Shown piece by piece: positions 1-61,594 of a stretch of DNA of 63,966 nt. Position 1 is the stretch's first letter. Every line of letters starts with the position of its first letter. A program made the translations under genes and the position numbers. This DNA is from a virus, in IMG/VR virus record IMGVR_UViG_3300033112_000364, positions 1 through 63,966 of that record; one strand, 5' to 3'. Below the pieces are notes generated by a model. The model had not been told where the DNA came from. It was given only the letters and a program-made list of their open reading frames with translations, and did no database searches.

Positions 1-55
1 TGTATTTGCTTCTGAACTTGTATCAGGAGTGTCGTATCTACCTTCAAGTTGTTCT
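1..55. repeat. Terminal overlap: bases 1-55 are identical to 63912-63966, a circular-closure signature (unique length 63,911 bp)
   Basis: Base-by-base comparison of both window ends. The reading frame of the flanking minus-strand ORF is preserved across the join. Confidence 0.95.
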
Positions 56-3000
56 TCTAATATGCTTGTAGTAACCCCATCACCAACGCCTCGATCTTCC
101 AGTTCTTGAATAAGATTAGAAATTCCACCCCATATAATTTCAAGTCCACCTAAATCAAGAACAAATGGATTTAGTTCCAATTCTCCTTCTTCAACCCTAA
201 CCAACGCCAATGACAATTCTTCTTCTATTTCTCGGAGTGTATCCAAATCCCAATCACCAGGCATATTAGGTAATTCTAAACTTGAATCTAAACCCGAATT
301 TTCAAGTGCATTTTGTGCGTCTCTAATTTGCCCAACTTCATTTTCTGTGAGATTACTCCAAAATGGTTCTCTATCTCGGATTATTTGCATTATGCGAGAA
401 TTCAATCTATCGCGAGTTTCGGGACCGGCATTAACGCTCTGATACATTCTATCCATTAAGTCCCAAAAGTTTTCTATTCTGCTTATGTGGAAATCATCAG
501 GGGTTAAATCCGCATATTCACGCAGATGACGCGTCAAATCAGTGCCAAGATGATCAGCTATAATTTCCAGTTCTGCTAAAACTGAATCACCTCGCTCTGC
601 TGGTTCGGTTTGTGTAGGTGAGGACAAGCTCTCATCGTTGAGAGATTCAACGTTGAGAGCTTCAACAACAACTTCTACTATTCTGTCAGCTCTGACCCGC
701 ATATTAGCATTTGTGGAAAGACTACGAAAAAGATCAATAACCCCACCCCAAGTAAATGTCCCATCTTCACCAAACCTCTCAATCAGATTGGAACGGTGAG
801 CTTCTGCTGCTATCAGCTCAGGCAACCAATAATCGACATAAGCCGTAGCGTTTTCTCTCGTCACATTTCCAACTACCAACTCGCCAGCATAGTTTCTTTG
901 TTGTTGTGTAAGTTCGCTTTCTGCTATGGTAGGGGGTGAGCCTTCCATTTCCTCAAGGGTTCTATCAATCGCATTAGATGCATTGTATAAGTTTTCATCG
1001 TCGAGATATTCACTTGCTTGTTCCCACGTTTCAATTGTATGGATCGTATTACTATTTTCTGCGTAATCTTCTCCAACACGATCTATTATGTACGCTTGAG
1101 GATTACTCCATGCCATTCCCCCTACATTCAGAGAACCTGTTGTGCCTTCGATATCAGGTGTAGGGACACCTTCTGCTTCGAATCTTGTTATCATAGGTTC
1201 TATATTTTCTCTGATAGTTTCAAGTTGATCCATGTAGTGAATATGTTGAAGACTCTCTCTACCACCGACAAAACGGTTGATTACATGAGTGCGATCTCGT
1301 TCAGGAACATTTGTGGTTTCAAAAAATGCAGCTAATTGCTCTCCAATATCTTGGAAGTGAACAAGTGGTAGCAACTCCAATTGGAACTCTGTGCGAAGAT
1401 AATTGCGTATGATATTTTCATAACGAGCTTCTGGCGTTTCTAATGAGATATGATGATCAATAACCTCACCAATTCTGCGGAGTGCGTTAAGATTTACGTC
1501 TTGGTTTCGCATCCTACTTACTTCTAAATCAGCAAGCCACCCTACCGCTTCAAGTGCATGCATAATATTAGACTGATCAGTTTCTGTGATGTGTCCCCAG
1601 AGGCTGTCAGGAGGGCTGGGTTCTGAATCTCTATAATATGGACGCTCTATGTAATCTACTATATCAATATCGGTCAAATCAGAATAGCTACTTTGGTCAA
1701 TATATGATTCACGCAAAAGGTCTATTACATTATCATAAAGACCATCCACATCGTAGTCATAACCGAATTGTTCGCCATAGTTGGTGAATAATTCCTGAAC
1801 CCTGTCTCCAATTGTGTTAACCATGTCTTCAAGTTCATCCTGAACTTCTTGACGTTGTTCTATGGCATGCTCTATATCCAATTCGCCATGATCTATGATG
1901 TATTGGTGAGAGTCGCGTTCAGATTCCAATTCTTCTAATTCTTCTCGAAGTTCTTCAATTGCAGCTTGAGTGTCATCGTATTCTGCCTGAAGTGCCTCTG
2001 CGGTATCACTATCGGGATCAAGGTCTGATAATTGTTCTTCTCTGCTATTTTGTAATGATTCCGAGTCTTCAATTCTGTCCTCTAATTCTTGTATTTCTTC
2101 TTCAAGAGGTTGTATGACATTTTCATATTCATGTTGTGCTTCACTGTCATAAATAACTTCATCGTCTCCGAATTGATCAATCCTGTCTTGGATTTCATCT
2201 AAATCTGATTCCCATGAATGCATGCGATCAAGAACTGCTTGGAAAGTAGTAGATTCATCTACTTCAGAAGTTCTATTGATACCGTCCGCGTCTACGTTGG
2301 GATCTGCGTCTGGAGTAGATGAACGCTCTGATGAGCGTTCTGTGATTTCTGCTTCATCTAACGCGTCCATGACAATTTCATTCAGTTCCACAACAAGCCT
2401 GAGGAATTCAGTTGGCAAATTCTGATAGTCAATAAGACTATCAACTCTATTCATGACTGTTTCCATGAATGGATTTTCACTCTCCATTTCAACATTAGTA
2501 GGGGGTCTACCAACTATATATTGAAATCGGTCACGTGCATAATCGTAGACATACTCGTTGAGATGCATTCTTGTATTATGTTCTTCTTCTTGTGCTTGAA
2601 TGCCTTCAATCCCACTGCTTTCATCCCCACTTTCAACCATTTCAATCCAACTCTCATAAACATCTATGAGGTTTTGTGCAGCTCTGCCTTGCACGGTTGT
2701 TCTAACAACTTCTGGTGTAGTTTGTCCTGGTGTGGTTGTTTGCGTAGCGGGTTGTGTAACGGGGCGTGTGGCTGGTTGTGTAAATTCAGGTGTTATACTA
2801 TCTGGTAATTGCCGTTGCAACACATCTAACAATTCTACTAAATTGTCATACAATTCAATTGCTTCATCATATCTCGTAGAACTGATTTCTGAAGTAGCTA
2901 AATCGCTTGACGCAAGTTCACGAGTTGCATGATCAGCTTCTTCATTGAAATACTCTATAAATCTATTTACAAGTTGATCTATAAAATTTATATTCCAAAG

Positions 3001-5775
3001 TGATGTATCTGTCCAACTTGGATCACCAAACGCATTCGCATTCAAGAATTGAACAGCTTCGTTGATTGTAGATAAATGCACATCAGAAAGCCCCTCATCG
3101 AGTTGACTTTCTCTATTAAATCCTTCAGGAGCTGAGCGAGGCGTGTCTGGTTCTTGATTCCATTCGTTCATTAAATTTTCAAATATAGTTTGTCGGGCTT
3201 CTATGGCATCAAAATTATTATTAGCCATATCTGCTTCTGCCAACTCAGTCTCTCTCTGATTCACTAAATCAATAAGTTCTTGCATTGACATTAAAACAGG
3301 TCTACCTCTACGGTGATCTGTAAAACGCTCGGTATCAGTATTAAATCTGCTACCGCTCATTCGCTCAAACCTATTAGACAAATCGTAAGTGTCAATGACA
3401 CTATTGAGTGTTCTTCTTGTTACGCCATGCGCGCCAGTTAGATGCAGTTCTGTATCAGCAGTAACAAAAAATGGATTATCAGGATGTGTTTGTTGAATAG
3501 GAACTCGGATTTCTCCTTCTCTGCGAAGTCTTTCTTGATCACCTTGAACGATCCTACGCACTTCGTTCATACTGCGGCTCGGGCGATATGTGCTTCCACC
3601 TTCACTTGCTGCGCCTCTTTCCCTTCCTCCCCTACTCTCTGCTATAATAAACTCATGCAGAAAATTTTCATGAGTAATGTAACGGTTCATCAAACCGAAC
3701 AAATGTTGTAGTCCTTCAGGAAAGCGTATGAAACCAGATGGAAGTCCGTGCCTCGATGGAGTTGTAGGAAATGGGGGACTGTCATCATCAGGATCATCAC
3801 TTATTGCTTTATTCAACTCTGTGGTGACAATTTGAAACATGTTGAGATGCCATTTCGAGATTGCATCCTTTATATTATTTATCTCTCTATTATCAGAGAT
3901 GTTTGTGATGTATTCTGGATACGGTATATTGATTTCACCTGAATTGATACCTCTAATAACTCTGTCTAATTCTTCAAGTAATCGGGTTTGTGCTTGGTCT
4001 CTGTTTCGCTCCATCGTTTGACGTGTAATTTCTTCACCCATTTGACGTGTAATTTCTTCACCCTCTCCTAACTGATCTCCATCTTCGGGGTCACCACCGT
4101 GAGACATCGGTGGTTCTTCCCATTCTGGTGCGGGGGGCGGCAATTCAGGATTTAGAGATCGTGTCAGATTTGAAATAAATTGCCCGTAGGATACACCTTC
4201 ATCAATCTGAACATCAGCTATATCGCGAGGAATATCAGCAATATCAGGGAAGCCTGGATCAGTATATGGATTTTCAGGTTCTGTTCTACGCATCGGATTC
4301 GCCCGTGGTGACGTTTCTGGTGGGTCTGATATATTGAATAGGGATTGAGCCTCAGGTGTTAGGTGAGGTCTCAAAACCTCGCTATCCTGACCACGCACAG
4401 TTGATTCAACCTTCTGACCGAACTCACTTTGGTCAAATGTGCCTGGTCTTTGCCACCTGTTATCCACATATTTTCTTTCATACCAGTCTCTGAAACCTTC
4501 ATAAGCCCGTCCCCCGATTTCAAATGGAAGTTGTTCGGGGTTCACATAGTCCGCAAACTTACCCATCGCACTCAAACCTTTTTGAAGTCTACCGAGTGTT
4601 TGTGGAGATGTTCCTTCACCTCGAAGTCCCTGTTTAATCCGAGTTCGGGCAATACCACTTGCCCCTGTCTGTCCGAGCATGCCAGCTGCATCGAGAGCAT
4701 GCACATAAACATCAAACGGGCGTTCTTCTAAAGTTTGTGCAAAAGTTTCGGGATCAAGCCACGCTGATGAAAATGATTCATAGTAGTATTGTAGAAGTGG
4801 TAGTAATGTGGGGGTGTTTTCTCTTGCCCATGCCAGGCGTGTGTTGAGTTGGTTGATCAATACCTGTTCATGTTCCAGTGAGTTTTCGCCATATTTTGCA
4901 ACCACCTTACCTACTTCCTGATCTTCTCGTTCCGCCATATCGCCAGTTCTGCGTAGACGCGTTCCAGTTGGAATACTCAACTGACCGAAAGGCGTACCAA
5001 CACTTCTAATATCGCCTACTTCTACACCGATGCCAAATTGTTCTTGAAATAATGCGATTTCTTTTAGAAGTGTTGGGGATTGCAATGCGAGAACTGGCAA
5101 TCCGATGACGGCATCTCCAAGCCCGGCTACAAAACTATCTGCTAATGCTCGTGGATCAGTGATTCCACGCCCGAAAGCGGCACCAAGACTAACAGATTTT
5201 CGCATACCATATTCGTCAAAAAGTTTATCGTAGGCTTCTTGTGTTTGTCCTCTTTTTCGTTTATATCCAGCCAACAGCTTTGCTTCTTCAGATTGATCGC
5301 GTAGATTTTCTCTGCGGAGCCTCATCGCATTTTCCCAATACTTCTGTCTGCTCTTGAGAGCATAATTTTGTGGACGCATGGGCGCGCCTTGCCACGGGAC
5401 ATCATGAGATCGTTCTTCTAAAGGCAGTTTGAGTTGGGCATCTATATGATCAAGGTAGGATTGATATTGTTTTGTTTTATCATCGCTATGTTCGCGATTC
5501 ACTTGTTCTGTTAATTGTGCTATTGTGTGATCGTAATATTCAAGAAAATCCAACAAGTCTTGACGTTGATTACCTCTTGACTTCAAACGCTCTTGGATAA
5601 GTTCCTGTAACCACAGATCATAATCCATGATCCGTTCTTCAGATTTGTCTGTATCGTATTGATCAAAGCGAACAGGGGCATCAGATTGCATCTTGCGTGC
5701 TGATCTACCAGATGCAATACTTGATGACCCACGTGGTTGAAATGGGTTGATTGAAGATGAGAAAGGATTTCTCAC
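1..5775 (-). CDS. Giant virion-module protein, N-terminal ~1,925 codons. The ORF runs off base 1 and continues at 63911 across the circular junction. Total is ~2,694 aa from GTG 5775, or ~2,666 aa from ATG 5691.
   Basis: I translated the minus-strand frame whose codons start at positions divisible by 3 and found no stop from 5790 down to base 1. The ORF track lists no minus ORF in 1-5700, as expected if the frame never closes inside the window. GTG 5775 overlaps the stop of ORF 5772..6218 (GTGA). The translation is acidic, looks helix-rich, and shows no catalytic motif I recognise. Confidence 0.8.
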   Translation of the reverse strand, partial: MRNPFSSSINPFQPRGSSSIASGRSARKMQSDAPVRFDQYDTDKSEERIMDYDLWLQELIQERLKSRGNQRQDLLDFLEYYDHTIAQLTEQVNREHSDDKTKQYQSYLDHIDAQLKLPLEERSHDVPWQGAPMRPQNYALKSRQKYWENAMRLRRENLRDQSEEAKLLAGYKRKRGQTQEAYDKLFDEYGMRKSVSLGAAFGRGITDPRALADSFVAGLGDAVIGLPVLALQSPTLLKEIALFQEQFGIGVEVGDIRSVGTPFGQLSIPTGTRLRRTGDMAEREDQEVGKVVAKYGENSLEHEQVLINQLNTRLAWARENTPTLLPLLQYYYESFSSAWLDPETFAQTLEERPFDVYVHALDAAGMLGQTGASGIARTRIKQGLRGEGTSPQTLGRLQKGLSAMGKFADYVNPEQLPFEIGGRAYEGFRDWYERKYVDNRWQRPGTFDQSEFGQKVESTVRGQDSEVLRPHLTPEAQSLFNISDPPETSPRANPMRRTEPENPYTDPGFPDIADIPRDIADVQIDEGVSYGQFISNLTRSLNPELPPPAPEWEEPPMSHGGDPEDGDQLGEGEEITRQMGEEITRQTMERNRDQAQTRLLEELDRVIRGINSGEINIPYPEYITNISDNREINNIKDAISKWHLNMFQIVTTELNKAISDDPDDDSPPFPTTPSRHGLPSGFIRFPEGLQHLFGLMNRYITHENFLHEFIIAESRGGRERGAASEGGSTYRPSRSMNEVRRIVQGDQERLRREGEIRVPIQQTHPDNPFFVTADTELHLTGAHGVTRRTLNSVIDTYDLSNRFERMSGSRFNTDTERFTDHRRGRPVLMSMQELIDLVNQRETELAEADMANNNFDAIEARQTIFENLMNEWNQEPDTPRSAPEGFNRESQLDEGLSDVHLSTINEAVQFLNANAFGDPSWTDTSLWNINFIDQLVNRFIEYFNEEADHATRELASSDLATSEISSTRYDEAIELYDNLVELLDVLQRQLPDSITPEFTQPATRPVTQPATQTTTPGQTTPEVVRTTVQGRAAQNLIDVYESWIEMVESGDESSGIEGIQAQEEEHNTRMHLNEYVYDYARDRFQYIVGRPPTNVEMESENPFMETVMNRVDSLIDYQNLPTEFLRLVVELNEIVMDALDEAEITERSSERSSTPDADPNVDADGINRTSEVDESTTFQAVLDRMHSWESDLDEIQDRIDQFGDDEVIYDSEAQHEYENVIQPLEEEIQELEDRIEDSESLQNSREEQLSDLDPDSDTAEALQAEYDDTQAAIEELREELEELESERDSHQYIIDHGELDIEHAIEQRQEVQDELEDMVNTIGDRVQELFTNYGEQFGYDYDVDGLYDNVIDLLRESYIDQSSYSDLTDIDIVDYIERPYYRDSEPSPPDSLWGHITETDQSNIMHALEAVGWLADLEVSRMRNQDVNLNALRRIGEVIDHHISLETPEARYENIIRNYLRTEFQLELLPLVHFQDIGEQLAAFFETTNVPERDRTHVINRFVGGRESLQHIHYMDQLETIRENIEPMITRFEAEGVPTPDIEGTTGSLNVGGMAWSNPQAYIIDRVGEDYAENSNTIHTIETWEQASEYLDDENLYNASNAIDRTLEEMEGSPPTIAESELTQQQRNYAGELVVGNVTRENATAYVDYWLPELIAAEAHRSNLIERFGEDGTFTWGGVIDLFRSLSTNANMRVRADRIVEVVVEALNVESLNDESLSSPTQTEPAERGDSVLAELEIIADHLGTDLTRHLREYADLTPDDFHISRIENFWDLMDRMYQSVNAGPETRDRLNSRIMQIIRDREPFWSNLTENEVGQIRDAQNALENSGLDSSLELPNMPGDWDLDTLREIEEELSLALVRVEEGELELNPFVLDLGGLEIIWGGISNLIQELEDRGVGDGVTTSILEEQLEGRYDTPDTSSEANT
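4017..4063 (-). repeat. In-frame 24-bp tandem duplication inside the giant gene (peptide GEEITRQM/GEEITRQT)
   Basis: tttgacgtgtaatttcttcaccc occurs twice with a 24-bp period (4017-4039 and 4041-4063). Confidence 0.9.
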
Positions 5776-6218
5776 GCTTGTGTTTTGCCCTCAACCCCTC
5801 TATTCTCTCTGTCTTTTTTCCTATCTTCAAGCCACCGCAAACCTGTTTCGAAATGCGTTCTCGCAACAGTGGTATATCGTGAAGGAAAGTTACCAGATTC
5901 AAAGCCACGCATTCTATGCACAAGAATTCTCGCGAGGTCTTCATCTGTCATGCCGTTGACAGGGTTTTCTTTACGCGGTCCCTCTTGCATGTCTACTTGA
6001 CCATGAACAACAAAGCTCGTTTCAACTTCAACTTCGGCTTCTTCATTAGCCTCTACTTGCTCTTTTGTCCTGCGTTTCTTTTTTTCTTTAGATTCTACCT
6101 TTCTAACTATATAGTGGTGACAGGCACCAGAAACGGCATCTGGTGGGTCTGTTGCTACAAGCTGAGTGTATTCATCTTCATGTAAAATTTCTTCATGATT
6201 AGTTTCTTGATCTTGCAT
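5772..6218 (-). CDS. hypothetical protein (148 aa)
   Basis: TAGGAG lies upstream of ATG 6218 and the stop overlaps the GTG of the giant ORF. It has an acidic N-terminus, a KEKKKRRTKE linker and a helical-looking C-terminus. No motif recognised. Confidence 0.7.
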   Translation of the reverse strand: MQDQETNHEEILHEDEYTQLVATDPPDAVSGACHHYIVRKVESKEKKKRRTKEQVEANEEAEVEVETSFVVHGQVDMQEGPRKENPVNGMTDEDLARILVHRMRGFESGNFPSRYTTVARTHFETGLRWLEDRKKDRENRGVEGKTQA

Positions 6219-6289
6219 TTTGTTCTCCTAATATGATAGCACATATCCGATAACGCATAATGCTATTAAAATCAAAAGTCCTATTTCTA

Positions 6290-8767
6290 TCATCGTAAAG
6301 GTTCAACTCTCCGAAATGGATTATCAACTCCAAATGGATTATTGGAATCAAAAATCGGTTTTGGTTTGTTTTGTTCACGCCTACCACGTTCTGTTGAGCG
6401 AGATGTTCGCATTGCTGCGCGAACTCCTACTTTCGGTCTAAATTTATTTTCTTTCATAAATGGAATTACCATGTATTCATTAGCTATCTTAAAATCTTCA
6501 GGAGTGACGGTTACCACCGTGCCATCCCTTTTTACAACATCCCAGCTATGCCCTTCTAACATCCATTTTCTACTTGCATCCGATTTAAGATAGTTATTCC
6601 ACCAACGCTCTCCAACAAATGCTGTTGTCATACCTGCGATTAGTGCAGCGTCTGTAAGCGAAAAAGTCCCCATGCCGACTTTGATACCACCATATCCACC
6701 GCCCATGAATGGAAGCATTGTGCTGATGTGATTCAGTAGTGATAGAAAACTCGGACTATGGACTAATCTATTTACAAATCCAGTAGGTGAGCCTTTTGTC
6801 CACCTACCTTCTTCAGAGAATTTTAATGCAAATTCACCAAGTGATGCAAGTTCTTTCGCCAATTCATCACCAAACAGATGTCGTAACCGATTTTTGTTAA
6901 CTTTATTGAGAGCTGCAATTTCAGATTTCAAACCACCCCAGCGAAAATGTTTTGTGCTACCATTCGCTTTATCGAGAAAACTCATAAGTAGACCTGGTTT
7001 GACCAAATCCCAACCGTTTTTACCCAAGATCACTTTCATATCTTGAATAAAAAACTTTGAAGTATTTTTGTTCAAGAGTTTATTTACAATGTTGTGAGGT
7101 GTGTCTAAATTTCTTCGGATGAATTTGCCAGCGGGTTTATCTTCCAAAATCAATGTTTCTGCATACTCTTTTTTCGCATCTTTGATTGTTTGTGTAAAAT
7201 CTGCTGGGAAATCTGATGGGTTCAGTGCATGTTCTGTTTCTACTAAATCGTAAAAATCCTCTGTTAATGTCTGATAAAGTCGCGACACAGGATCACCACT
7301 TCCGATCGGTTTTAGCCCAGCCTGATGAATTGCTTCCTCAAACTTTTGTCTGAACTCTGTACGAAACTGGTCAAAGTCTCTAATTGTCAATCCATCATTG
7401 GACAATCTGGCAAATGCTTCGCTCAACACTTGCTCTGCTATTTGAATAGATTGACGCGGACCTGAAGAAAGACGAGAGTGGTCATTTTTCAATTTATCCA
7501 ACTCGGCACGTGTTTTAGAAAGCAAAGGAAAAGTGTCAGGATCAATACGTAATTCAACATCTAATGTTTGTGCTATGTCCCCAAACATTTTTCTGAAGCT
7601 CGCATTTTTCCCAGTTTGCCAATTTTGGTATCGCTGTCTGATCGCCCCCCCAACCTCATCAATATCAAAAGTGTTGTTGACGGCAGAATCAAGACCACGT
7701 GCAATATCAATTTCACGATTTGTTATATCATCAAGTGTTTCAGAATATGCTTTTTCAGACCTCTCAAATCTTTGTTGAACAGGTATTGAATCTTCACCAC
7801 CCGTTTGGTGTCGTATCATCTCATTATGTTTTACTGTGGGATTTTCTGATAAAACAATAGCGGGCGTTTGATCTGCTACTGTACCGATTTTATCTGCCAT
7901 CTCTACTGGCGTTTGTGTGGTTTTTAATTTATCGCCAGTCTGCGTATCTCTACCATACACAGCGTTAAAAGGTTTGTTATAGTCTTCTTTAGCGAGATTG
8001 CGATTTTTCCACTTTGCCACTGCTTTTCCAAGCAGACCGCCAGCAACGAAAGGTGCTTCAACTGGATCAGTGTATGGCAAGATCATACCCGCTCTACGAG
8101 TTGCTCTTGCTGCTTTTCCAGTTCCTTTGATTTTCTGAAGGTGTTTGGTATAAGGTAGAACGGTAGAAAGAACACGAAAAGGACGCTCATATAAGGTATT
8201 GAGCAGTTTATCACTGTCTCCCCAAACTGAATATGATTCCCAAAGTATGTTGCCCAGCGTTGGTGCTTCTTCTGCTAATTTCTTGTATGCCTCATCACGC
8301 TGTTTGTAAATGTTTTTGAGAGTAGGATCATCCTTTCTATTTTGCCCAAGAAAACCAGTGCGAGTTCTGTAATGACTTTCAAGCTCCAAGACTTTTGTTA
8401 GAGCTTTGAAAATACCGCCCGGATTGTAGTTTATTTCAGTTATCATTTCTTCTGCAGCATGACCGAGATTGGCTTTTCTAATATCATCTAATTCTTCCCA
8501 AAAAGAGTTCCAAGCGTTTATTGTCCACCTTCCAAATGTTTTCTTTTCAGGGGTTCTTTGGGCATCAGGTATAGCACGGGATACCTTCTCATCTAAAAGT
8601 TGTTGAGTTGCATCGTCAATAGATGTATCTGTTTGTTCAGGTAAGGTGGGAACTTCTGAATCAGGGCGTGCAGCGGGCGTAGGTTGATTTTCGTTTGGCA
8701 CTGGAAGCGTTGGAACACCTTCAATATCTTTTAATAACTCATCAGTAAGATTGTCTATATCGTTCAT
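6290..8767 (-). CDS. large virion-module protein (825 aa), possible internal/ejection protein
   Basis: 4-nt overlap with the upstream ORF. Gly-rich hydrophobic stretches lie near the C-terminus (MLPFMGGGYGGIKVGMGTF, AALIAGMTTAFVG). The C-terminus carries tandem NPF (NNPFGVDNPFRRVEPLR). Confidence 0.5.
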   Translation of the reverse strand: MNDIDNLTDELLKDIEGVPTLPVPNENQPTPAARPDSEVPTLPEQTDTSIDDATQQLLDEKVSRAIPDAQRTPEKKTFGRWTINAWNSFWEELDDIRKANLGHAAEEMITEINYNPGGIFKALTKVLELESHYRTRTGFLGQNRKDDPTLKNIYKQRDEAYKKLAEEAPTLGNILWESYSVWGDSDKLLNTLYERPFRVLSTVLPYTKHLQKIKGTGKAARATRRAGMILPYTDPVEAPFVAGGLLGKAVAKWKNRNLAKEDYNKPFNAVYGRDTQTGDKLKTTQTPVEMADKIGTVADQTPAIVLSENPTVKHNEMIRHQTGGEDSIPVQQRFERSEKAYSETLDDITNREIDIARGLDSAVNNTFDIDEVGGAIRQRYQNWQTGKNASFRKMFGDIAQTLDVELRIDPDTFPLLSKTRAELDKLKNDHSRLSSGPRQSIQIAEQVLSEAFARLSNDGLTIRDFDQFRTEFRQKFEEAIHQAGLKPIGSGDPVSRLYQTLTEDFYDLVETEHALNPSDFPADFTQTIKDAKKEYAETLILEDKPAGKFIRRNLDTPHNIVNKLLNKNTSKFFIQDMKVILGKNGWDLVKPGLLMSFLDKANGSTKHFRWGGLKSEIAALNKVNKNRLRHLFGDELAKELASLGEFALKFSEEGRWTKGSPTGFVNRLVHSPSFLSLLNHISTMLPFMGGGYGGIKVGMGTFSLTDAALIAGMTTAFVGERWWNNYLKSDASRKWMLEGHSWDVVKRDGTVVTVTPEDFKIANEYMVIPFMKENKFRPKVGVRAAMRTSRSTERGRREQNKPKPIFDSNNPFGVDNPFRRVEPLR

Positions 8768-10398
8768 CTGATTAGAGTCCTTTTTCTCCGCAGACTGTCT
8801 ATAAACTCTTGAGCCGTTGTGCCGGGTCTCCGCTCTTTCATTTCTTCAAACATTCCATCAAATTGTGCTTGCGAAATATATCTGATATATTCTTGAGGAG
8901 CAACTTCACCTAAATCAAATTTGAGATTAGTAGTGTAATTTCCCCAATCCTCGCCCATATTCTTCACAAACGTGTCTTTGAGACCTCTCAAAACATTTGT
9001 CATCAAACCGTCTATAATAGCAGTATTCAGCTTATAGTCATTACCGATTTGAGCGAAAATTTGAGTATACATCTCACGTTCTGATTCAGTAACCTGCGCG
9101 CCTGAACGCAATGCGATAAATTCAGTAACAAGGAATTTGATGTCTGAAAACAAAGAGGCGACTTCAGGATCATTAGGTATTATGTCACCCCCAGTTCTCC
9201 TTGCAATTGCCTCAACAAATGCTGTCAGCTTACCCAAATCTTTACCTTGAGATTGTAAAAGATCAATTCTTTTTTGAATTTCAGGAAGATGCACTTGAAG
9301 TATTTCACGAGCGAGCAGATTTCTTTTAGCGATTTCTCCACCAGGTGCATTTTCAAAAATCTCATCTGCTGCTAAAAAAGCAACTGCTTTTTTGTTCTGC
9401 GGATCAGATGCCATCTGTTCAAAAGTTCTACCTCTTAAAAAACTATCAATATCGTGGGCCCACGCTTTTCTGTTACCAACCGGCATCATACTACCGATTT
9501 TACGAATCATGTAGTTATTAGAAAAATCATCTTTGTATTTATTGAAGATTTCCTCTGCTCTCTGCGTGTCTGTTATGCTACCTGGCGAAGGTTCTTTTTG
9601 TAAGATGCGAGGTGAGGTTTTACCGCCAGCGATTTCTGCTTTTTGCTGGTTTTTCCAAGCTTCCCATTCCTCATCTTTCATACCAGCAGGCTTTTCAAGT
9701 GCATCAATAATGTTTGTTTTTGCACCAAGCTCTTGCTCGGTTGTTTCTTCAGGTGTTTTCTGTTCTGGCTTTTCTGTGGTATCACGCATGAACGCTGCAG
9801 CAGGATCAACATTTGAATCAATTTCTTCATTCATTTGTATTGCACGTTGTTCAGGCGTTTGTGCTTTTCCAGTCGTTCTTTCTTGCTGGCGAATTTGTTT
9901 TGGTGTCATTTCCAATTCAGTAGCAAAACTACTGGATTGCACATCATCAGAAGCACCTAATAAAGCAAGTTTGGCAGTCTCAGGAGTTGACGAAGACGCA
10001 GCTTCACGAAAATCCTTTGTTTTGTTGTATAAATCAGGATCAATATCTTTTATGATAGCTGCGAGATAGTCAACAGTTGTATAGTCCTTGTCTTTGACTG
10101 CTGCCACATAAGCATTTTTGAGCCAATGCGATTGTCCCATCTCAACGAGTTGTAGTGCCTGTTCGTGTAGTTTTTCTTTTAGTTTGATTTGTTCTTCTAC
10201 ATTTTTTTTCTGTTCCTTGAGCAAATCCCCCTTCGCTGCCATTTCTGCACGTAGCAAGGCAGCCTCTTGACCAGAGACATCACCATTACCTTTCGCAAAG
10301 TGGGCGTTCATCAGTTCGGTGACGAGATCAGTTGCTGGTTTCGGAGTGGTATCTGCAGCTTGATTACCAGATTGTAATGTGCCTGCTATACTTTGCAT
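8764..10398 (-). CDS. hypothetical virion-module protein (544 aa)
   Basis: Long ORF coupled to its neighbours. The N-terminal half is Lys/Glu-rich and coiled-coil-like. No catalytic motif seen. Confidence 0.5.
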   Translation of the reverse strand: MQSIAGTLQSGNQAADTTPKPATDLVTELMNAHFAKGNGDVSGQEAALLRAEMAAKGDLLKEQKKNVEEQIKLKEKLHEQALQLVEMGQSHWLKNAYVAAVKDKDYTTVDYLAAIIKDIDPDLYNKTKDFREAASSSTPETAKLALLGASDDVQSSSFATELEMTPKQIRQQERTTGKAQTPEQRAIQMNEEIDSNVDPAAAFMRDTTEKPEQKTPEETTEQELGAKTNIIDALEKPAGMKDEEWEAWKNQQKAEIAGGKTSPRILQKEPSPGSITDTQRAEEIFNKYKDDFSNNYMIRKIGSMMPVGNRKAWAHDIDSFLRGRTFEQMASDPQNKKAVAFLAADEIFENAPGGEIAKRNLLAREILQVHLPEIQKRIDLLQSQGKDLGKLTAFVEAIARRTGGDIIPNDPEVASLFSDIKFLVTEFIALRSGAQVTESEREMYTQIFAQIGNDYKLNTAIIDGLMTNVLRGLKDTFVKNMGEDWGNYTTNLKFDLGEVAPQEYIRYISQAQFDGMFEEMKERRPGTTAQEFIDSLRRKRTLIR

Positions 10399-10405
10399 AT
10401 TTCAC

Positions 10406-11251
10406 CTATGGAAGTTGGAAAGCATCTATAAGCCATTGCGCGCCAAATGCTTGTTCTAATAATCCCATTTGCTGTGGGTTGCCCATATACATCTTACCCA
10501 AACGACTCCCCTCGTGAATCTTGTGTTGTGTGATATGTTGTTTTATTTCTTCTTTTGAACTGTTGGCAGTCAACCCAGCAGACATAGATGCATCAGTTCC
10601 TTGCGTAGTTTGCGTGGTTTCTGGTGTTACGACTTTCCCTTCTGCGTCAAATTGAACTTTGCCGAACTGGGTTGGTACGGTAGTGTTCTTGGGGGGTTGA
10701 CCTTCAGTCATCTGATCTTTGCTACCACCACTTTCGTCCTTGTCACCAATACCAAGTGCTTTCCGCAGAGGTGAATCCGTTGTAGCTACATTGAACGCAG
10801 TTGAGGTAACAGCATTTCCTAAAGATGACCAATCTTTCTGTTCTTCTGCTCTATTTGCTTGATCTGTCCAAGCTTCTGCATGAGCGATGTTGTCTTCCAG
10901 TTCTGCTTCTCTATCATCAAGCCAATCGTCTGCTCGTTGACGGACGGCTCTCTCTTGACCACTACTTACTGACTCCGAAAACTCACCACCCAAACCTTTC
11001 GCAGCCATACTCGCAGCTAAAGAATTCCGAACCTCTGCTCCACTCCGTCTCGCTCGTCTACGAGTTGTTCGGGCGGTTCGTTGGAAAGCATCTCGAAACG
11101 GATTAGGATCAAACTTGAATGGATTATCGTCTTGTAATGCTCCAACTATACCACCACCAATTGTTGCGGCTCCAATAAGAAAGGGATTAGCTGATGGTGC
11201 AGCTGCTAATCCGCCCGCAACGCCAGTTGTAAATGCTTTTCTAACTCCCAT
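10406..11251 (-). CDS. Gly/Ala-rich membrane-segment protein (281 aa), possible internal/ejection protein
   Basis: N-terminal segment GVAGGLAAAPSANPFLIGAATIGGGIVGAL is followed by DDNPFKFDPNPF and an Arg-rich patch (RTTRRRARRSG). Confidence 0.5.
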   Translation of the reverse strand: MGVRKAFTTGVAGGLAAAPSANPFLIGAATIGGGIVGALQDDNPFKFDPNPFRDAFQRTARTTRRRARRSGAEVRNSLAASMAAKGLGGEFSESVSSGQERAVRQRADDWLDDREAELEDNIAHAEAWTDQANRAEEQKDWSSLGNAVTSTAFNVATTDSPLRKALGIGDKDESGGSKDQMTEGQPPKNTTVPTQFGKVQFDAEGKVVTPETTQTTQGTDASMSAGLTANSSKEEIKQHITQHKIHEGSRLGKMYMGNPQQMGLLEQAFGAQWLIDAFQLP

Positions 11252-59635: not shown

Positions 59636-61594
59636 CTAACCCACAGGCGTCGGTAGGGCATTCCCTTCCGACGCTTGTTGGTTTTGAGACATTCCTTCTG
59701 TCATCTGTTGTAGCATTCCAAGACCACCCCCACCAGCTTGTTGTATTTCTGCATCCATCTGTGCCATGAGTTCCCTTGCTTGTAGCATCTGTTGGACTTG
59801 TTCCGCAATCGGTATGCCCGGCACTAACGTTTTAGTCATCGCTTCCATTTGTGCCATCCACTCCTCAGGCATCTTATCGCTCATTTCCGTCAACTTCATA
59901 AATGTTGCTGGCGGGATCAATCCCATATTGTACATGATCATATAGATATTCCACTCGCCCGAAACCGTCGTTGACGGCAACATCGCTTTACTATCTATCT
60001 GAACATCAAATTTCAAGTCTGCCATAGCAAGATCAATGTTTGGATACTCATCAAGTCCTAATCGCTCTGAATAAAACTCATTAGCAAAATCTGTGTGTTT
60101 TTGCATCATCATCGTTTCAAGATTCGCAGCGTTCAAGTGTCCAACATCAAGCATGCGAGCATATTCTGCCATCAACGTGTTTGCTGTTTCTAATAAAGTT
60201 TGAGCGTGAATACCAGATTTTACCGAAGACGGAGCGATACCTGATAGGATACCTTGAGGATCACCAGAAAGCTCACGTGTATATGCTACCTCGTTCTGCA
60301 TCAAATTATGAACAGATGATCCCACATCGCCAGGCTCTATCTGTTTGATTCGGTTACGAGAAATAGCGTCATGCTCCACATACATCAAAATGTTAGACTT
60401 CATAGAGAAGTTCTTACCTTGAACTGCTCCACGCTCTGCCATCCATTGAGTGTATGCATTAGCCCTCACATTTTTACCGATTGCGTTGTAGCAAATGTCT
60501 ATGAAATCTTGAGTTCCTATGATAGTATCTACGAGAGAATATCCACCCGCCCTATCACTCATTGGATCATGACAATGACACACGATCGGATACAACCCCA
60601 TCAAGTCGGGGCCCTTGTCTTCCTCTTTCATACCATAAGGGATTGCCCAGTCGTTCACAAGTATGAATAGACGAGCGCGCGTGTCCTTCCTCTGCGGGTT
60701 TTCTCGCATCTCCTCAACATCACCGTCAAAGTTCAAGAGGTCAGGAACGCCTGGATTCCAAAAGAATGCTTTCACTGGATATGCTGGCATCTCCCGTTTG
60801 ACTTCAACCTGATCATCTGCTGCATCGCTCGTTGTCCAATATCTGCGTATCATAGACGCATCATCGAGATAATTCTTTTCAGAATCACCCCCCATATAAT
60901 CTCTCTCTGCGAGACCATATCTTGCATAGATTTCAGCTGCAGACATCTCAGTCTGAACTCTGATATATCTTGAATCCCAAAAAGTAGAAATATCTTTGGC
61001 TGCAGGATCAAGTAAAACCTGATGACGATATGCTAATCTCGGATTGACAACCGTTCCTCGCCACATATCTTGCCTGACACTATAGACGGTAAATGCCATC
61101 CCGTCTATTAGAGACATCTCAACCTGTCTCTTTTTGAGAACTTGCTCTTTCCTCATCTGTCGTTCAAGTTTGACAGCATCATTCAATTTTGTAGCAACAA
61201 CACGATTTTCATAATCATTCTGATAGAACATATCCTCGTATGCGAACTCGCCCATCGCATCGGGACGCAGTGCTTTGATTTGTGCCTCAGGTGCTGCACG
61301 TGAAAGCAGAGCGGTGAATTGCTGCACTTTTGGTTTGATGACATCTTTATGTAGTATTGTGTTGTTTGAATACTGCTCCAGTTTGCCTCGCACATTTCTT
61401 GGAGCATTCCGCAGAAGATGAGGCATATCACCCCGAACATACGAGTGATTGCGAATAGAATTATCAATATCACTTGCAGCTTCTTCTAAAGCCATACCTT
61501 CAAGATGTAGTAGTGCTTGCCGCATATCTTCAACGGTTGTTATTTGTTCGAGTGGTTTACGAATACCATCTCCGTGCGTAACAATACTATGCAT
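59636..61594 (-). CDS. portal protein candidate (652 aa)
   Basis: The size fits, and the Gln/Met/Ala-rich C-terminal tail resembles that of T7-type portals. It starts 7 nt after the giant gene stop. No diagnostic motif was verifiable by eye. Confidence 0.55.
   Translation of the reverse strand: MHSIVTHGDGIRKPLEQITTVEDMRQALLHLEGMALEEAASDIDNSIRNHSYVRGDMPHLLRNAPRNVRGKLEQYSNNTILHKDVIKPKVQQFTALLSRAAPEAQIKALRPDAMGEFAYEDMFYQNDYENRVVATKLNDAVKLERQMRKEQVLKKRQVEMSLIDGMAFTVYSVRQDMWRGTVVNPRLAYRHQVLLDPAAKDISTFWDSRYIRVQTEMSAAEIYARYGLAERDYMGGDSEKNYLDDASMIRRYWTTSDAADDQVEVKREMPAYPVKAFFWNPGVPDLLNFDGDVEEMRENPQRKDTRARLFILVNDWAIPYGMKEEDKGPDLMGLYPIVCHCHDPMSDRAGGYSLVDTIIGTQDFIDICYNAIGKNVRANAYTQWMAERGAVQGKNFSMKSNILMYVEHDAISRNRIKQIEPGDVGSSVHNLMQNEVAYTRELSGDPQGILSGIAPSSVKSGIHAQTLLETANTLMAEYARMLDVGHLNAANLETMMMQKHTDFANEFYSERLGLDEYPNIDLAMADLKFDVQIDSKAMLPSTTVSGEWNIYMIMYNMGLIPPATFMKLTEMSDKMPEEWMAQMEAMTKTLVPGIPIAEQVQQMLQARELMAQMDAEIQQAGGGGLGMLQQMTEGMSQNQQASEGNALPTPVG

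What the first reader, a model, noticed from the sequence alone, without database searches (positions are those of the whole stretch)
1..5775. Hidden giant gene of about 2,694 codons crossing the circular junction and coupled to the portal gene
The first 5.7 kb looks empty in the ORF track, which shows only short plus-strand shadow ORFs there. The minus strand is one uninterrupted frame that exits at base 1 and re-enters at 63911, ending at 61602. That is 8,085 nt, about 12.6% of the genome. Its probable GTG start overlaps the upstream stop (GTGA), and its stop lies 7 nt before the portal candidate ATG, with GGTGAG in between. The translation is acidic and looks helix-rich, and I recognised no catalytic motif. 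It follows three other large proteins that have Gly-rich membrane segments. A packaged cargo, ejectosome or inner-body role is plausible, but this is inference. The size approaches that of N4 vRNAP or P1 DarB, without their motifs being visible.
Basis: partly seen in the sequence, partly recalled or inferred. Interest (0 to 1): 0.85.

Follow-up and report, generated by a model that had tools for sequence, protein, structure and literature searches.

The report
Giant lysine-free phage ejection-type protein
A real 2,694-codon gene, hidden because the contig is cut inside it, most likely encodes a new kind of giant protein that this short-tailed phage packs into its head and shoots into the host ahead of its DNA; it has odd features, including 1,673 consecutive residues without a single lysine.

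Summary
Removing the 55-bp terminal duplicate gives a 63,911-bp circle. Its minus strand carries one 8,085-nt ORF (5775→1, 63911→61602; 2,694 aa, 308 kDa, pI 4.35). An independent assembly is 100% identical across the junction, and homologues align across it.

Only three other phage lineages (62.8–64.8-kb contigs) have a relative. It always sits in the same place: proteins of ~300, ~580 and ~790 aa, a small gene (a Tad1 anti-defence homologue in three of four lineages), the giant (1,525–4,307 aa), then a P22-type portal.

The giant has no Pfam, PHROG, PDB or cultured-phage match, only coiled-coil NCBIfam hits, and no RNA-polymerase motifs.

Its anatomy:
- a conserved N-module, partly paralogous to the upstream 825-aa protein;
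- conserved linker motifs at module borders;
- a shuffled, helical, acidic middle with no lysine in 1,673 residues;
- a conserved C-module;
- tandem NPF motifs at both termini, also found in neighbouring proteins.

The four-gene block has no cysteine. The proven ejection proteins of N4, T7 and P22 have one between them. One relative carries sigma-factor-like domains instead of the acidic middle.

Best reading: a new family of giant virion-internal ejection proteins that deliver an exchangeable payload. Packaging itself is untested.

The parts
1..5775 (-). Giant gene, 5' part (codons 1-1925). GTG start at 5775-5773.
61602..63911 (-). Giant gene, 3' part (codons 1926-2694 plus TAG stop at 61604-61602).
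63912..63966 (.). Exact duplicate of bases 1-55. This is the assembler's overlap that marks a circular contig, not biology.
   Evidence: junction verified in independent contig L077
5772..5775 (-). GTGA: start codon of the giant overlapping the stop codon of the Tad1-like ORF (translational coupling).
   Evidence: the same 4-nt overlap occurs in L001
4246..5775 (-). N-module (aa 1-510), the only part conserved in all four lineages at 31-43% identity. It contains 21 of the protein's 36 lysines (aa 28-455).
5740..5769 (-). N-terminal tandem NPF (aa 3-12, NPFSSSINPF).
5065..5190 (-). Conserved Gly-rich apolar segment (aa 196-237, ..RALADSFVAGLGDAVIGLPVLALQSP..). Candidate membrane-active element.
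4471..4827 (-). Core of the N-module (aa 317-435), similar to aa 164-259 of the upstream 825-aa protein.
   Evidence: hhalign probability 82%, E=1e-5; tblastn of P0002 against its own upstream gene, E=8e-5
4051..4125 (-). Linker motif copy 1 (aa 551-575, EWEEPPMSHGGDPEDGDQLGEGEE). Lies at the border between the N-module and the first middle module.
1..3807 (-). Lysine desert, first part (aa 657-1925). Acidic, amphipathic-helical, fast-evolving and shuffled modules.
62700..63911 (-). Lysine desert, second part (aa 1926-2329).
1768..2367 (-). Acidic coiled-coil stretch (aa 1137-1336).
   Evidence: sub-threshold SMC/Rad50 coiled-coil hits in NCBIfam
3469..3477 (-). Internal NPF (aa 767-769), conserved in P0001.
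2467..2475 (-). Internal NPF (aa 1101-1103).
163..171 (-). Internal NPF (aa 1869-1871), conserved in P0001 (NPFVLDLGG / NPFVMDMTG).
62847..62921 (-). Linker motif copy 2 (aa 2256-2280, DDDDWEEPPGSYGGDPADGDQLGD). Lies at the border between the middle and the C-module.
61722..62819 (-). C-module (aa 2290-2655), conserved in three of four lineages at 38-42% identity. Invariant FRID.RGRRE..GWMGE and YRSDGIYVV.
61671..61715 (-). Degenerate third linker (aa 2658-2672, RFIDDTDGEPDAGDR). It aligns with a full linker copy in P0001.
61605..61661 (-). C-terminal tandem NPF tail (aa 2676-2694, KNPFQIQNRQVSQRANPFA). All four lineages end in NPF[AV].
59636..61594 (-). Portal gene, starting 7 nt after the giant's stop. 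Last gene of the long minus-strand transcription unit.
   Evidence: phrog_156, E=5e-16; PF16510 P22_portal in orthologues
5772..6218 (-). 148-aa Tad1 (Thoeris anti-defense 1) homologue, coupled to the giant's start.
   Evidence: profile against PDB entries 7UAV/8KBH, E=4e-20; phrog_2428, E=6e-24
6290..8767 (-). 825-aa Cys-free protein with a Gly-rich segment (aa 681-713) and a C-terminal tandem NPF. Putative ejection protein.
   Evidence: weak phrog_770 'DNA transfer protein' hit, E=0.002
8764..10398 (-). 544-aa Cys-free protein. Putative ejection protein. Two of its orthologues (L001, L004) carry an internal NPF.
10406..11251 (-). 281-aa Cys-free protein with an N-terminal Gly-rich transmembrane-like segment that contains NPF, plus two more NPF. 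Putative ejection protein.

Best explanation
The ORF is a genuine late gene of an uncultivated short-tailed phage that has a P22-type portal and an SU10-type adaptor. It most likely encodes the largest member of the phage's set of internal virion (ejection) proteins.

Proposed mechanism (steps 1-4 are inferred, not shown):
1. The protein is made at the end of the late operon, translationally coupled to the Tad1-like gene before it and the portal gene after it. It enters the procapsid near the portal. The tandem NPF motifs at its two ends, which the neighbouring 281-aa and 825-aa proteins share, serve as the common docking or incorporation signal.
2. At infection the 281-, 544- and 825-aa proteins and the N-module of the giant leave through the tail and build the conduit across the envelope. 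The N-module has a Gly-rich apolar segment and is partly paralogous to the 825-aa protein. This is what T7 gp14/15/16 and N4 gp51/52/50 do.
3. The rest of the giant is a string of helical modules joined by conserved linkers. It is threaded into the cell as a payload that acts before any phage gene is expressed.
4. The payload is exchangeable. In this phage and two relatives it is a lysine-free, cysteine-free, strongly acidic helical array with no recognisable enzyme. My guess is a non-enzymatic binder or decoy used in host takeover or anti-defence. In a fourth relative it is a set of sigma-factor-like DNA-binding domains.

Absence of cysteine fits passage in an unfolded state through the oxidising periplasm. 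Absence of lysine points to avoidance of some lysine-directed chemistry in the host or in the DNA-filled capsid.
For: SHOWN
- The gene and the junction are real. Homologues align across the junction.
- Synteny is conserved in four lineages: ~300-aa, ~580-aa and ~790-aa proteins, a small gene, the giant, then the portal. The portal is identified by phrog_156 and PF16510. The large terminase (TerL) and an SU10 adaptor are also present.
- The 281-, 544-, 825-aa and giant proteins contain 0 Cys in 4,344 residues, in every lineage. The other ORFs average 1.12% Cys, giving P of about 1e-13 for the giant alone.
- The experimentally established ejection proteins show the same pattern while their neighbours have Cys. 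N4 gp50/51/52 have 0 Cys in 4,294 residues. T7 gp14/15/16 have 1 in 2,261. P22 gp7/20/16 have 0 in 1,309.
- NPF is the most enriched tripeptide in the giant: 7 observed against 0.24 expected, P about 7e-9. It sits at both extreme termini in the window's giant and in P0001, and at the C-terminus in all four lineages (P0002 lacks the N-terminal copy). It recurs at the C-terminus of most 825-aa orthologues and the N-terminus of the 281-aa family, but hardly anywhere else among 89 ORFs.
- The N-module core is similar to the upstream 825-aa family (hhalign 82%, E=1e-5).
- Module borders defined by homology coincide with the linker motif, and module order differs between phages.
- Relative P0002 has Sigma70_r4 / r4_2 domains (E=1e-40) and phage sigma-factor PHROGs where the acidic middle would be.
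- N4 has the same layout, with smaller ejection genes followed by the giant at the end of the late operon.
- The sequence is helical and amphipathic with a coiled coil.

FROM THE LITERATURE
- Podoviruses encapsidate three ejection proteins that lack cross-family sequence similarity. In Schitoviridae the third is the giant vRNAP, built as a membrane-spanning N-terminal domain, a payload and a C-terminal domain, with a beads-on-a-string architecture (PMC13434306).
- A 2,811-aa protein of Stx phage phi24B is abundant in virions and is proposed to be an ejection protein (bioRxiv 10.64898/2026.04.10.717836).
Against: - There is no direct evidence that the protein is in virions or is ejected.
- There is no detectable homology to any known ejection protein, vRNAP or polyvalent protein. 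The only family-level hint for the block is a weak phrog_770 hit in one member (E=0.002).
- Structure prediction failed: pLDDT 54 and 41 with only 3-4 sequences. The membrane role of the N-module therefore rests on one moderately hydrophobic segment.
- Scaffolding proteins of T7 and P22 are also Cys-free, so that signature does not separate ejected proteins from proteins that merely leave or fill the capsid.
- The function of the acidic payload is a guess.
- The arginine content (7%) argues against a simple 'avoid binding DNA' explanation for the missing lysine.
Confidence: 0.6

Rival explanations
1. Processed polyprotein or 'cargo train'. The giant is cut at the conserved linkers (..PPGSYGG-D|P-..GDQLGE), and perhaps at NPF sites, into an N-module piece (about 63 kDa), a middle piece (about 195 kDa) and a C-module piece (about 48 kDa). 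The pieces would act separately. This refines the main explanation rather than excluding it.
For: The linker is a highly conserved motif of about 20 aa found only in giant genes. There are 2 good copies plus 1 degenerate copy here, 6 in P0001 and 3 in L006. Every copy lies at a border between homology blocks. It contains Asp-Pro, the most acid-labile peptide bond, and NPF contains Asn-Pro (general protein chemistry, my knowledge). Polyvalent phage proteins are proposed to be processed before or after packaging (PMC5512222).
Against: No protease was found among the 40 ORFs scanned, and P22/SU10-type podoviruses typically lack a prohead protease. The linker could equally be a flexible hinge, a docking site or a recombination joint. 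No self-processing domain was detected. The motif is degenerate in P0002.
Confidence: 0.2
2. Internal core, scaffold or inner-body protein that organises or spaces the packaged DNA but is not delivered into the cell.
For: The protein is acidic, helical and Cys-free like the scaffolding proteins of T7 and P22. It is encoded next to the portal. Contig length is constant (62.8-64.8 kb) although the giant gene varies from 4.6 to 12.9 kb.
Against: A structural spacer should keep its size. Here the protein varies 2.8-fold and its modules are shuffled. The sigma-factor-like payload of P0002 makes sense only inside a cell. The N-module paralogy and shared NPF motifs tie it to the putative ejection block.
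Confidence: 0.12
3. Non-virion late protein. A giant acidic decoy or DNA mimic, or another anti-defence factor, that acts in the producing cell and is not packaged.
For: It is translationally coupled to a Tad1 anti-defence homologue. It has no enzyme domain. Its acidic, helical, Lys-poor and Cys-free composition resembles small DNA mimics such as T7 Ocr (my knowledge of the Ocr sequence, not tested here).
Against: Anti-defence factors are needed early, yet this gene is second to last in a transcription unit of about 60 kb, inside the virion module and in front of the portal. The Cys-free signature and NPF motifs are shared with its structural-block neighbours but not with the Tad1-like protein, which has 1-3 Cys.
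Confidence: 0.1
4. External fibre, whisker or head decoration.
For: Several ORFs in the structural region are also lysine-poor (21112-24310, 28211-31028, 36586-39389). These may be surface or tail proteins (function not established), so lysine depletion could mark exposed virion parts.
Against: Hydrophobic periodicity is purely helical, with no beta-type signal. There are no fibre, collagen or beta-helix domains. The only ORF with collagen/tail-fibre PHROG hits is elsewhere (15836-16588). The sigma-like payload in P0002 is incompatible with an external role.
Confidence: 0.04
5. Artefact: a non-coding open frame, a chimeric junction or a mis-assembly.
For: The ORF is absent from ORF tracks and from protein databases as a full-length entry. 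Only fragments of 2,073 and 770 aa are on record.
Against: The chance probability of the open frame is about 1e-76. Protein-level conservation is found on both sides of and across the junction. An independent contig is identical across the junction. Giants are syntenic in three other lineages.
Confidence: 0.01

Closest known systems
N4 gp50 virion RNA polymerase and its ejection partners gp51/gp52 (Schitoviridae)
   Same: Both are giant proteins (2,694-4,307 aa here against 3,500 aa). Each is encoded after the smaller ejection-type genes at the end of the late operon of a short-tailed phage. Both are tripartite: an N-terminal putative membrane part, a payload and a conserved C-terminal part. 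Both have a modular beads-on-a-string design (PMC13434306). All proteins of the block contain no cysteine.
   Different: There is no sequence similarity (BLAST E>0.3; no PDB hit). There is no T7-like polymerase motif B or any polymerase domain. N4 gp50 has 6.3% Lys, a longest Lys-free run of 82 residues and no NPF. Here the portal gene follows directly, and a Tad1 gene is inserted before the giant.
Large polyvalent proteins of phages (Iyer et al. 2017, PMC5512222), e.g. phi24B gp47 and P1 DarB
   Same: Both are giant multi-module proteins encoded among virion genes, predicted or shown to be packaged and delivered with the DNA. Both have variable module content between relatives and a conflict-related context (Tad1 is next door here). 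The window's TerL is distantly (24%) related to that of Stx phages, which carry such a giant.
   Different: None of the defining domains was detected in the window's giant or in P0001: MuF, LPD families, metallopeptidase, ADP-ribosyltransferase, helicase or methylase. There is no similarity to the Stx-phage 2,796-aa protein, which has 6% Lys, 2 Cys and no NPF.
T7 gp14/gp15/gp16 and P22 gp7/gp20/gp16 ejection proteins
   Same: Both are a consecutive block of late genes of increasing size. Both are helical and Cys-free. A small first member carries a transmembrane-like segment. The largest member comes last.
   Different: There is no homology. The last member here is 2-4 times larger than gp16. 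No transglycosylase domain was found. The NPF and linker motifs and the lysine desert are unknown in those systems.
Lysine deserts (PMC10169902, PMC10665810)
   Same: Both are long, evolutionarily conserved stretches devoid of lysine with arginine retained. In the literature they are interpreted as protection against lysine-directed conjugation (ubiquitin, Pup) and were noted in phages of pupylating Actinobacteria.
   Different: Those phage cases are in GC-rich genomes, where lysine is rare anyway. Here the genome is 40% GC, the desert has GC3 of 28%, and the other ORFs have 5.5% Lys. A desert of 1,673-1,988 residues in a phage structural-module protein was not found in the literature searched.
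Tad1, Thoeris anti-defense 1 (PDB 7UAV, 8KBH). Applies to the upstream ORF only.
   Same: The 148-aa ORF and its orthologues match Tad1 chains at E=4e-20 over about 80 residues of the C-terminal half.
   Different: The N-terminal half is divergent and carries a Lys/Glu-rich insert. The position, inside an ejection-gene block and start-stop coupled to a giant gene, has not been described to my knowledge.

Membership tests
N4-type virion RNA polymerase (Schitoviridae gp50) | Central T7-like single-subunit RNA polymerase domain with motifs T/DxxGR, A, B (R-x3-K-x6-7-YG) and C | tested here: not met
   No motif B in any of the three giants. The only conserved TxxGR string lies in the C-module, without partner motifs. 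No Pfam or NCBIfam polymerase hit. No PDB sequence hit, although N4 RNAP structures are in the PDB. BLAST against gp50 gave E=0.37.
N4-type virion RNA polymerase (Schitoviridae gp50) | Giant protein encoded after the two smaller ejection proteins at the end of the late operon | tested here: met
   Gene order 281-544-825-(Tad1)-giant here against gp52-gp51-gp50 in N4.
N4-type virion RNA polymerase (Schitoviridae gp50) | Encapsidated in a few copies and ejected into the host | not testable with these tools
   Needs virion proteomics and infection assays.
crAss-like virion RNA polymerase (two-barrel, gp66 type) | Double-psi beta-barrel domains with a conserved DxDxD catalytic loop | tested here: not met
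   Four DxDxD strings occur in this Asp-rich protein, but none lies in a block conserved with the homologues. No PDB or Pfam hit. No beta-type periodicity.
Large polyvalent proteins (PMC5512222) | Two or more recognisable conflict or effector domains in one chain (MuF, LPD1-39, zincin peptidase, ART, SNF2 helicase, methylase, PBECR and others) | tested here: not met
   Pfam-A gave nothing at E<=0.05 for the window's giant and P0001. PHROGs and NCBIfam gave only coiled-coil or sub-threshold hits. Relative P0002 does carry several Sigma70_r4 HTH domains.
Large polyvalent proteins (PMC5512222) | Encoded in a virion / portal-terminase context and variable in module content between relatives | tested here: met
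   Adjacent to the portal in all four lineages. Modules are shuffled or replaced.
Podovirus ejection (internal virion) proteins, as a functional class | Consecutive late genes, alpha-helical, with membrane-active segments | tested here: met
   Block 11251-5775 plus the giant. Helical predictions and periodicity. Gly-rich apolar segments in the 281-aa and 825-aa proteins and the giant's N-module.
Podovirus ejection (internal virion) proteins, as a functional class | Cysteine-free composition. This is an empirical signature that I derived here from N4, T7 and P22, not a published criterion. | tested here: met
   0 Cys in 4,344 residues here, in all lineages. The nine reference proteins have 1 Cys in 7,864 residues. 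Scaffolding proteins share this feature, so it is not specific.
Podovirus ejection (internal virion) proteins, as a functional class | Located inside the capsid and released before the DNA | not testable with these tools
   Needs proteomics, bubblegram cryo-EM and ejection assays.
P1 DarB-type antirestriction protein | Helicase and DNA methyltransferase domains | tested here: not met
   No such Pfam, NCBIfam or PHROG hit and no Walker A motif.
Self-processing giant toxins (MARTX CPD; FrpC Asp-Pro self-processing module) | Cysteine-protease or Ca-dependent self-processing domain next to the cleavage site | tested here: inconclusive
   The linker contains Asp-Pro, but no processing domain was detected. 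The protein has no Cys at all, which excludes a CPD. Cleavage itself is not testable here.
Tad1 (upstream 148-aa ORF) | Sequence homology to Tad1 structures | tested here: met
   E=4e-20 against 7UAV/8KBH. A local Pfam scan gave no hit, although the precomputed tables list PF24729 for the L004/L006 orthologue.
P22-type portal (downstream ORF) | Match to a portal profile | tested here: met
   phrog_156, E=5e-16, over aa 129-639. PF16510 in orthologues. The local Pfam scan of the window's copy was negative.

The most novel reading that the evidence does not exclude
The family is a phage 'effector train', a chassis for injecting exchangeable cargo. The chassis has an N-terminal conduit or anchor module and NPF docking motifs shared by all ejection proteins. 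Cargo modules are separated by a conserved Asp-Pro-containing linker at which the chain is cut, or at which modules are swapped by recombination. In most members the cargo has been purged of every lysine and cysteine. That would let the protein survive a lysine-directed host defence (ubiquitin-like or other conjugation and degradation of incoming phage proteins), or avoid cross-linking to DNA during long storage in the capsid. In one member the cargo is a pre-made sigma-like factor that reprograms host transcription on entry. This would be a mode of host takeover and defence evasion distinct from N4's packaged polymerase.
Probability: 0.15. Interest if true: 0.85.

Novelty: new variant of a known kind. 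Interest (0 to 1): 0.68.

Why it matters
Giant proteins that short-tailed phages pack and inject are under active study. Examples are the N4 polymerase, the 2,811-aa protein of Stx phages and crAss-phage cargo. Open questions are how they are recruited into the head, how they pass a 3-4 nm channel and what they do on arrival.

This family offers sequence-level handles on all three questions:
- a short motif (NPF) shared by all putative ejection proteins, which could be the recruitment signal;
- a conserved linker that delimits modules;
- a natural payload swap, from an acidic array to sigma-like domains, which implies delivery of function.

The lysine desert is the longest I am aware of in a phage protein. 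It sits in an AT-rich genome, where composition cannot explain it. That makes the idea of lysine-directed host attack on incoming phage proteins directly testable.

The case also shows a practical blind spot. The largest gene of the genome is missing from ORF tracks and from protein databases, because circular contigs are cut inside it or low-coverage long reads break its frame.

Tried and rejected
1. Homology searches for the giant found almost nothing.
- Pfam, PHROGs and NCBIfam gave only coiled-coil noise. PDB sequence searches with the whole protein and with N- and C-module profiles gave nothing.
- tblastn against 50,697 phage genomes gave no match with the N+C modules, the 825-aa protein or the portal. 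Megablast of bases 1-20000 also gave nothing.
- A profile search of 1.84 billion representative proteins found only the three relatives already known.

2. Searches for related loci with the N-module found none in IMG/VR, JGI metagenomes or GTDB genomes.

3. A degenerate DNA pattern for the linker motif found 0 matches in IMG/VR. It found 70 in JGI metagenomes, all chance matches in GC-rich DNA with no tblastn support.

4. AlphaFold2 gave pLDDT 54 for the C-module and 41 for the N-module. Neither model is usable, and Foldseek against the PDB gave nothing below E=1.

5. A halophile host as the cause of the acidic, Lys-poor composition is rejected, because the other ORFs have normal Lys (5.5%) and normal pI.

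6. Base composition as the cause of the lysine desert is rejected. The desert has GC 41% and GC3 28%, like the rest of the genome.

7. Homology to the giant of Stx phages, whose TerL is the nearest cultured relative, is rejected.

8. P0003, a 498-aa stand-alone N-module, first looked like evidence that the gene can be split. This is rejected. L004 and L006 are 3x and 5x long-read contigs of one phage, and their frame breaks lie at different places. At one stretch where both contigs are broken (L006 4848-5290), the Lys-free acidic sequence continues in successive frames.

9. Promoter and terminator scans inside and around the giant found nothing above the shuffled expectation.

10. No protease was found among the 40 ORFs scanned. 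Not every small ORF was scanned.

11. Profiles of the 281-, 544- and 825-aa families against PDB sequences found no relative.

Full report
1. THE OBSERVATION

The window ends with an exact 55-bp copy of its first 55 bases. This is the usual mark of a circular contig from a k=55 assembler, so the unique sequence is 63,911 bp. On the circle, the minus strand has a single stop-to-stop frame of 2,699 codons, running 5790→1 and then 63911→61602. The first start is a GTG at 5775. The ORF is therefore 8,085 nt, or 2,694 aa: 308 kDa, pI 4.35, 19.9% D+E, 1.3% K, 0 C, and 12.65% of the genome.

The tool's ORF list shows only the 755-aa tail of it, because ORFs that run off an end are not listed. The GTG overlaps the TGA of the upstream ORF (GTGA). 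The TAG stop is followed by 7 nt and then the ATG of a 652-aa ORF.

The junction is real. Contig k141_1803697 from ENA assembly ERZ27234780 (64,004 bp, cut elsewhere) is 100% identical and gap-free over 5,595 nt spanning it. Protein alignments with relatives also cross it.

The GTG start is supported by alignment of the homologues from residue 1.

2. SURROUNDINGS

Nearly all genes lie on the minus strand, from about 55,950 down to 5,772. Then come the giant and, last, the 652-aa ORF. That ORF is a portal (phrog_156, E=5e-16; PF16510 P22_portal in its orthologues). A large terminase (39901-41814) and an SU10-type adaptor (41780-43321) identify a short-tailed phage. TerL is only 24% identical to its nearest cultured relatives, Stx phages and Vibrio phage douglas. 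The portal and 20 kb of DNA find nothing among 50,697 phage genomes.

Upstream of the giant lie ORFs of 281, 544 and 825 aa, followed by a 148-aa ORF. The 148-aa ORF is a clear Tad1 (Thoeris anti-defense 1) homologue, E=4e-20 against PDB 7UAV/8KBH.

3. RELATIVES

Three searches of a 5.8-billion-protein collection and one exhaustive HMM search of 1.84 billion representatives found only three other lineages:
- P0001: 4,307 aa, on a 64.8-kb contig.
- P0002: 1,525 aa, on 62.8-62.9-kb contigs from a sponge metagenome.
- One phage seen in two low-coverage long-read contigs, L004 and L006. There the gene is broken by frameshift errors but can be followed for about 3,600 codons, from L006 2713 to 13532.

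In all four lineages the order is the same: a protein of about 300 aa, one of about 580 aa, one of about 790 aa, a small gene, the giant, then the portal. The small gene is Tad1-like in three lineages and an HTH protein in P0002. No relative was found in IMG/VR, JGI metagenomes or GTDB genomes by pattern scans.

4. ANATOMY

(a) N-module, aa 1-510. It is conserved in all lineages at 31-43% identity. It is predicted to be helical, and it contains a conserved Gly-rich apolar segment at aa 196-237. Its core (aa 317-435) resembles aa 164-259 of the upstream 825-aa family (hhalign 82%, E=1e-5).

(b) Linker motif, consensus D-D-P-D-I-P-G-S-Y-G-G-D-P-x-x-G-D-Q-x-G-E. Copies lie at aa 551-575 and 2256-2280, with a degenerate copy at 2658-2672. 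P0001 has six copies and L006 has three. The motif occurs only in giant genes and always at borders between homology blocks.

(c) Middle, aa 657-2329. It is about 23-34% identical to parts of P0001 and L004/L006, and the blocks are in a different order in each phage. It has a strong alpha-helical hydrophobic periodicity (z about 5-6) and a coiled coil at 1137-1336. Net charge is about -14 per 100 residues.

It has not one lysine in 1,673 residues: 0 AAA and 0 AAG codons, while Arg is 7.2%. The other ORFs have 5.5% Lys, giving P of about 1e-41. The desert has GC 41% and GC3 28%, like the genome, so composition is not the cause. P0001 has 3 Lys in 3,200 residues, with a longest Lys-free run of 1,988. 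L006 has 1 Lys in more than 3,200 residues. N4 gp50, T7 gp14-16, P22 gp7/20/16 and the Stx-phage giant have normal Lys.

(d) C-module, aa 2290-2655. It is conserved in three lineages, with invariant FRID.RGRRE..GWMGE and YRSDGIYVV strings. Its fold could not be predicted (pLDDT 54).

(e) NPF. The giant has seven copies against 0.24 expected (P about 7e-9), making NPF by far the most enriched tripeptide. Two copies sit at the extreme N-terminus and two in the last 19 residues. All four giants end in ..NPF..NPF[A/V]. NPF also ends most members of the 825-aa family, lies in and after the transmembrane-like segment of the 281-aa family, and occurs in two orthologues of the 544-aa protein. It is nearly absent from the other ORFs.

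(f) No cysteine. The giant and the 281-, 544- and 825-aa proteins have 0 Cys in 4,344 residues, in every lineage, against 1.12% in the rest of the genome.

5. WHAT IT IS NOT

- There is no Pfam, PHROG or NCBIfam domain beyond coiled coil, and no PDB relative by sequence.
- There are no T7/N4-type polymerase motifs, no conserved DxDxD and no Walker A.
- There is no similarity to N4 gp50 or to the Stx-phage giant.
- It is not a halophile-type protein, because the rest of the proteome is ordinary.

6. WHAT IT MOST LIKELY IS

The best-supported reading is a giant internal virion (ejection) protein, the last and largest of a four-protein set. Two kinds of evidence support this.

Shown here:
- the conserved position of the gene in front of the portal;
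- the coupling to its neighbours;
- the shared NPF motifs;
- the paralogy between the N-module and the 825-aa protein;
- the cysteine-free signature.

I checked the cysteine signature against the experimentally established ejection proteins. N4 gp50/51/52 have 0 Cys in 4,294 residues. T7 gp14/15/16 have 1 in 2,261. P22 gp7/20/16 have 0 in 1,309. Their neighbours do contain Cys. The gene layout also mirrors N4, where gp52, gp51 and the giant gp50 close the late operon.

From the literature:
- Ejection proteins of different podovirus families lack sequence similarity.
- In Schitoviridae the third ejection protein is the giant vRNAP, with a membrane-spanning N-terminal domain, a payload and a C-terminal domain.
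- Its beads-on-a-string design is thought to allow passage through the roughly 35 Å channel (PMC13434306).

The strongest hint that the variable part is delivered cargo comes from P0002. There the N- and C-modules are followed by a phage sigma-factor-like segment and four to five Sigma70 region-4 HTH repeats, ending in the same NPF tail. A transcription factor encoded at the very end of the late virion operon makes sense if it is carried into the next cell.

Inferred, not shown:
- packaging;
- ejection;
- NPF as a recruitment or docking signal;
- the N-module as part of the conduit;
- the acidic array as a binder or decoy.

I put 0.6 on the ejection-protein reading.

7. RIVALS

- Processing at the linkers into about three pieces. 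This is compatible with the main reading (0.2).
- A non-ejected inner core or scaffold (0.12). The 2.8-fold size variation and the sigma payload speak against it.
- A non-virion late anti-defence decoy (0.1). The late position and the signatures shared with structural neighbours speak against it.
- An external fibre (0.04).
- An artefact (0.01).

8. THE LYSINE DESERT IS UNEXPLAINED

It is conserved across lineages that share only about 25% identity. It is confined to the payload, and it spares arginine. A plain charge or DNA-repulsion argument therefore fails, and the cause should lie in the chemistry of the epsilon-amino group. Candidates:
- Escape from lysine-directed conjugation or degradation in the host. 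This is the interpretation given to lysine deserts in eukaryotes and in phages of pupylating Actinobacteria (PMC10169902, PMC10665810).
- Avoidance, together with the missing Cys, of nucleophiles that could cross-link to DNA or to reactive Asp/Asn-Pro sites during storage.
- Resistance to a Lys-specific protease.

None of these could be tested here.

9. NOVELTY AND SCORE

The kind, a giant packaged or ejected podovirus protein, is known. This family is new in several respects:
- four lineages only, with no homologue anywhere else in about 6 billion proteins;
- the NPF termini shared across the block;
- the module-delimiting linker;
- the payload swap;
- the Tad1 gene coupled to its start;
- the lysine desert.

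I rate it a new variant of a known kind, with interest 0.68. The most novel reading not excluded is an effector-train chassis with lysine-purged cargo as a counter to lysine-directed host attack. I give that about 0.15 probability.

Noticed in passing
window 5772-6218 (-): The 148-aa ORF whose stop overlaps the giant's start is a Tad1 (Thoeris anti-defense 1) homologue, E=4e-20 against PDB 7UAV/8KBH. It is conserved at the same spot in L001 and L004/L006 and replaced by an HTH_3 protein in L002. An anti-defence sponge gene inside an ejection-gene block is unusual. The local Pfam scan missed it, although precomputed tables list PF24729 for the orthologue.
   Followed up: partly
window 21112-24310, 26412-27146, 28211-31028, 36586-39389, 46661-47146 (-): A subset of ORFs in the structural region is also strongly lysine-poor (0-2.1% K; for example the 492-aa ORF has 2 Lys with a 348-residue Lys-free run). 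The terminase, the portal, the adaptor, a possible coat protein and the 281/544/825-aa proteins have normal lysine (3.7-8.1%). None of the lysine-poor ORFs has a database match, so it is unknown whether they are surface or tail proteins.
   Followed up: partly
N4 (L079), T7 (L080), P22 (L081) and window 5775-11251: The established ejection proteins of N4, T7 and P22 are essentially cysteine-free (1 Cys in 7,864 residues), while neighbouring virion and replication proteins contain Cys. The window's four-protein block shows the same pattern. This could be a useful homology-free marker for ejection proteins. Scaffolding proteins share it.
   Followed up: partly
L002/L003 10001-14578 (P0002): The 1,525-aa relative carries a phage sigma-factor-like segment plus 4-5 Sigma70 region-4 HTH repeats between NPF motifs. 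One further HTH segment (aa 845-905) is 72% identical to a separate small gene of the same phage (L002 17809-17991), which suggests the payload was built from the phage's own regulator gene.
   Followed up: partly
L001, L002/L003, L006 and window (whole contigs): Contig lengths are nearly constant (62,769-64,824 bp), although the giant gene ranges from 4.6 to 12.9 kb. Other gene content must compensate, as expected for a fixed capsid capacity.
   Followed up: no
L004 6339-17700; L006 2713-13532: In 3x and 5x long-read contigs of one phage the giant gene is split into 3-5 called ORFs by frameshift errors at different places. Database entries such as the 498-aa P0003 and the 811-aa P0004 are fragments, not genes. 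The two contigs also differ by a 297-bp in-frame indel inside the giant.
   Followed up: yes
window 59524-59552 (+); 56052-56080 (-); 56914-56942 (+): A perfect sigma-70 consensus (TTGACA-17-TATAAT) lies on the plus strand just past the 3' end of the portal gene and points antisense into it. Two 11/12 matches with an extended -10 TG lie in the plus/minus switch region near 56 kb. One of them, at 56052-56080 (-), precedes the long minus-strand unit. They suggest a bacterial host with standard sigma-70 promoters. Overall counts do not exceed the shuffled expectation.
   Followed up: no
window 31602-32600 and 36020-36499 (-): A glycosyltransferase-like ORF (phrog_2170, E=2e-8) and a heptose kinase/adenylyltransferase-like ORF (phrog_7878, E=8e-15) sit in the middle of the structural region. 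Possible roles are virion or DNA glycosylation, or host surface modification.
   Followed up: no
window 45670-46590 and 44446-45573 (-): An acidic (pI 4.4), Cys-free 306-aa ORF lies directly upstream of a 375-aa ORF and the adaptor and terminase genes. The pair looks like scaffold plus major capsid protein, but neither matches any profile.
   Followed up: no
window 15836-16588, 16645-17439, 13678-14523, 59247-59543: Other annotated genes: an ORF with an N-terminal transmembrane segment and a collagen-like/tail-fibre repeat; an endolysin-like ORF (phrog_7, E=8e-7); a DNA methyltransferase (phrog_56, E=3e-36); and an HU-like DNA-binding protein (PF00216, from the precomputed table of L077).
   Followed up: no
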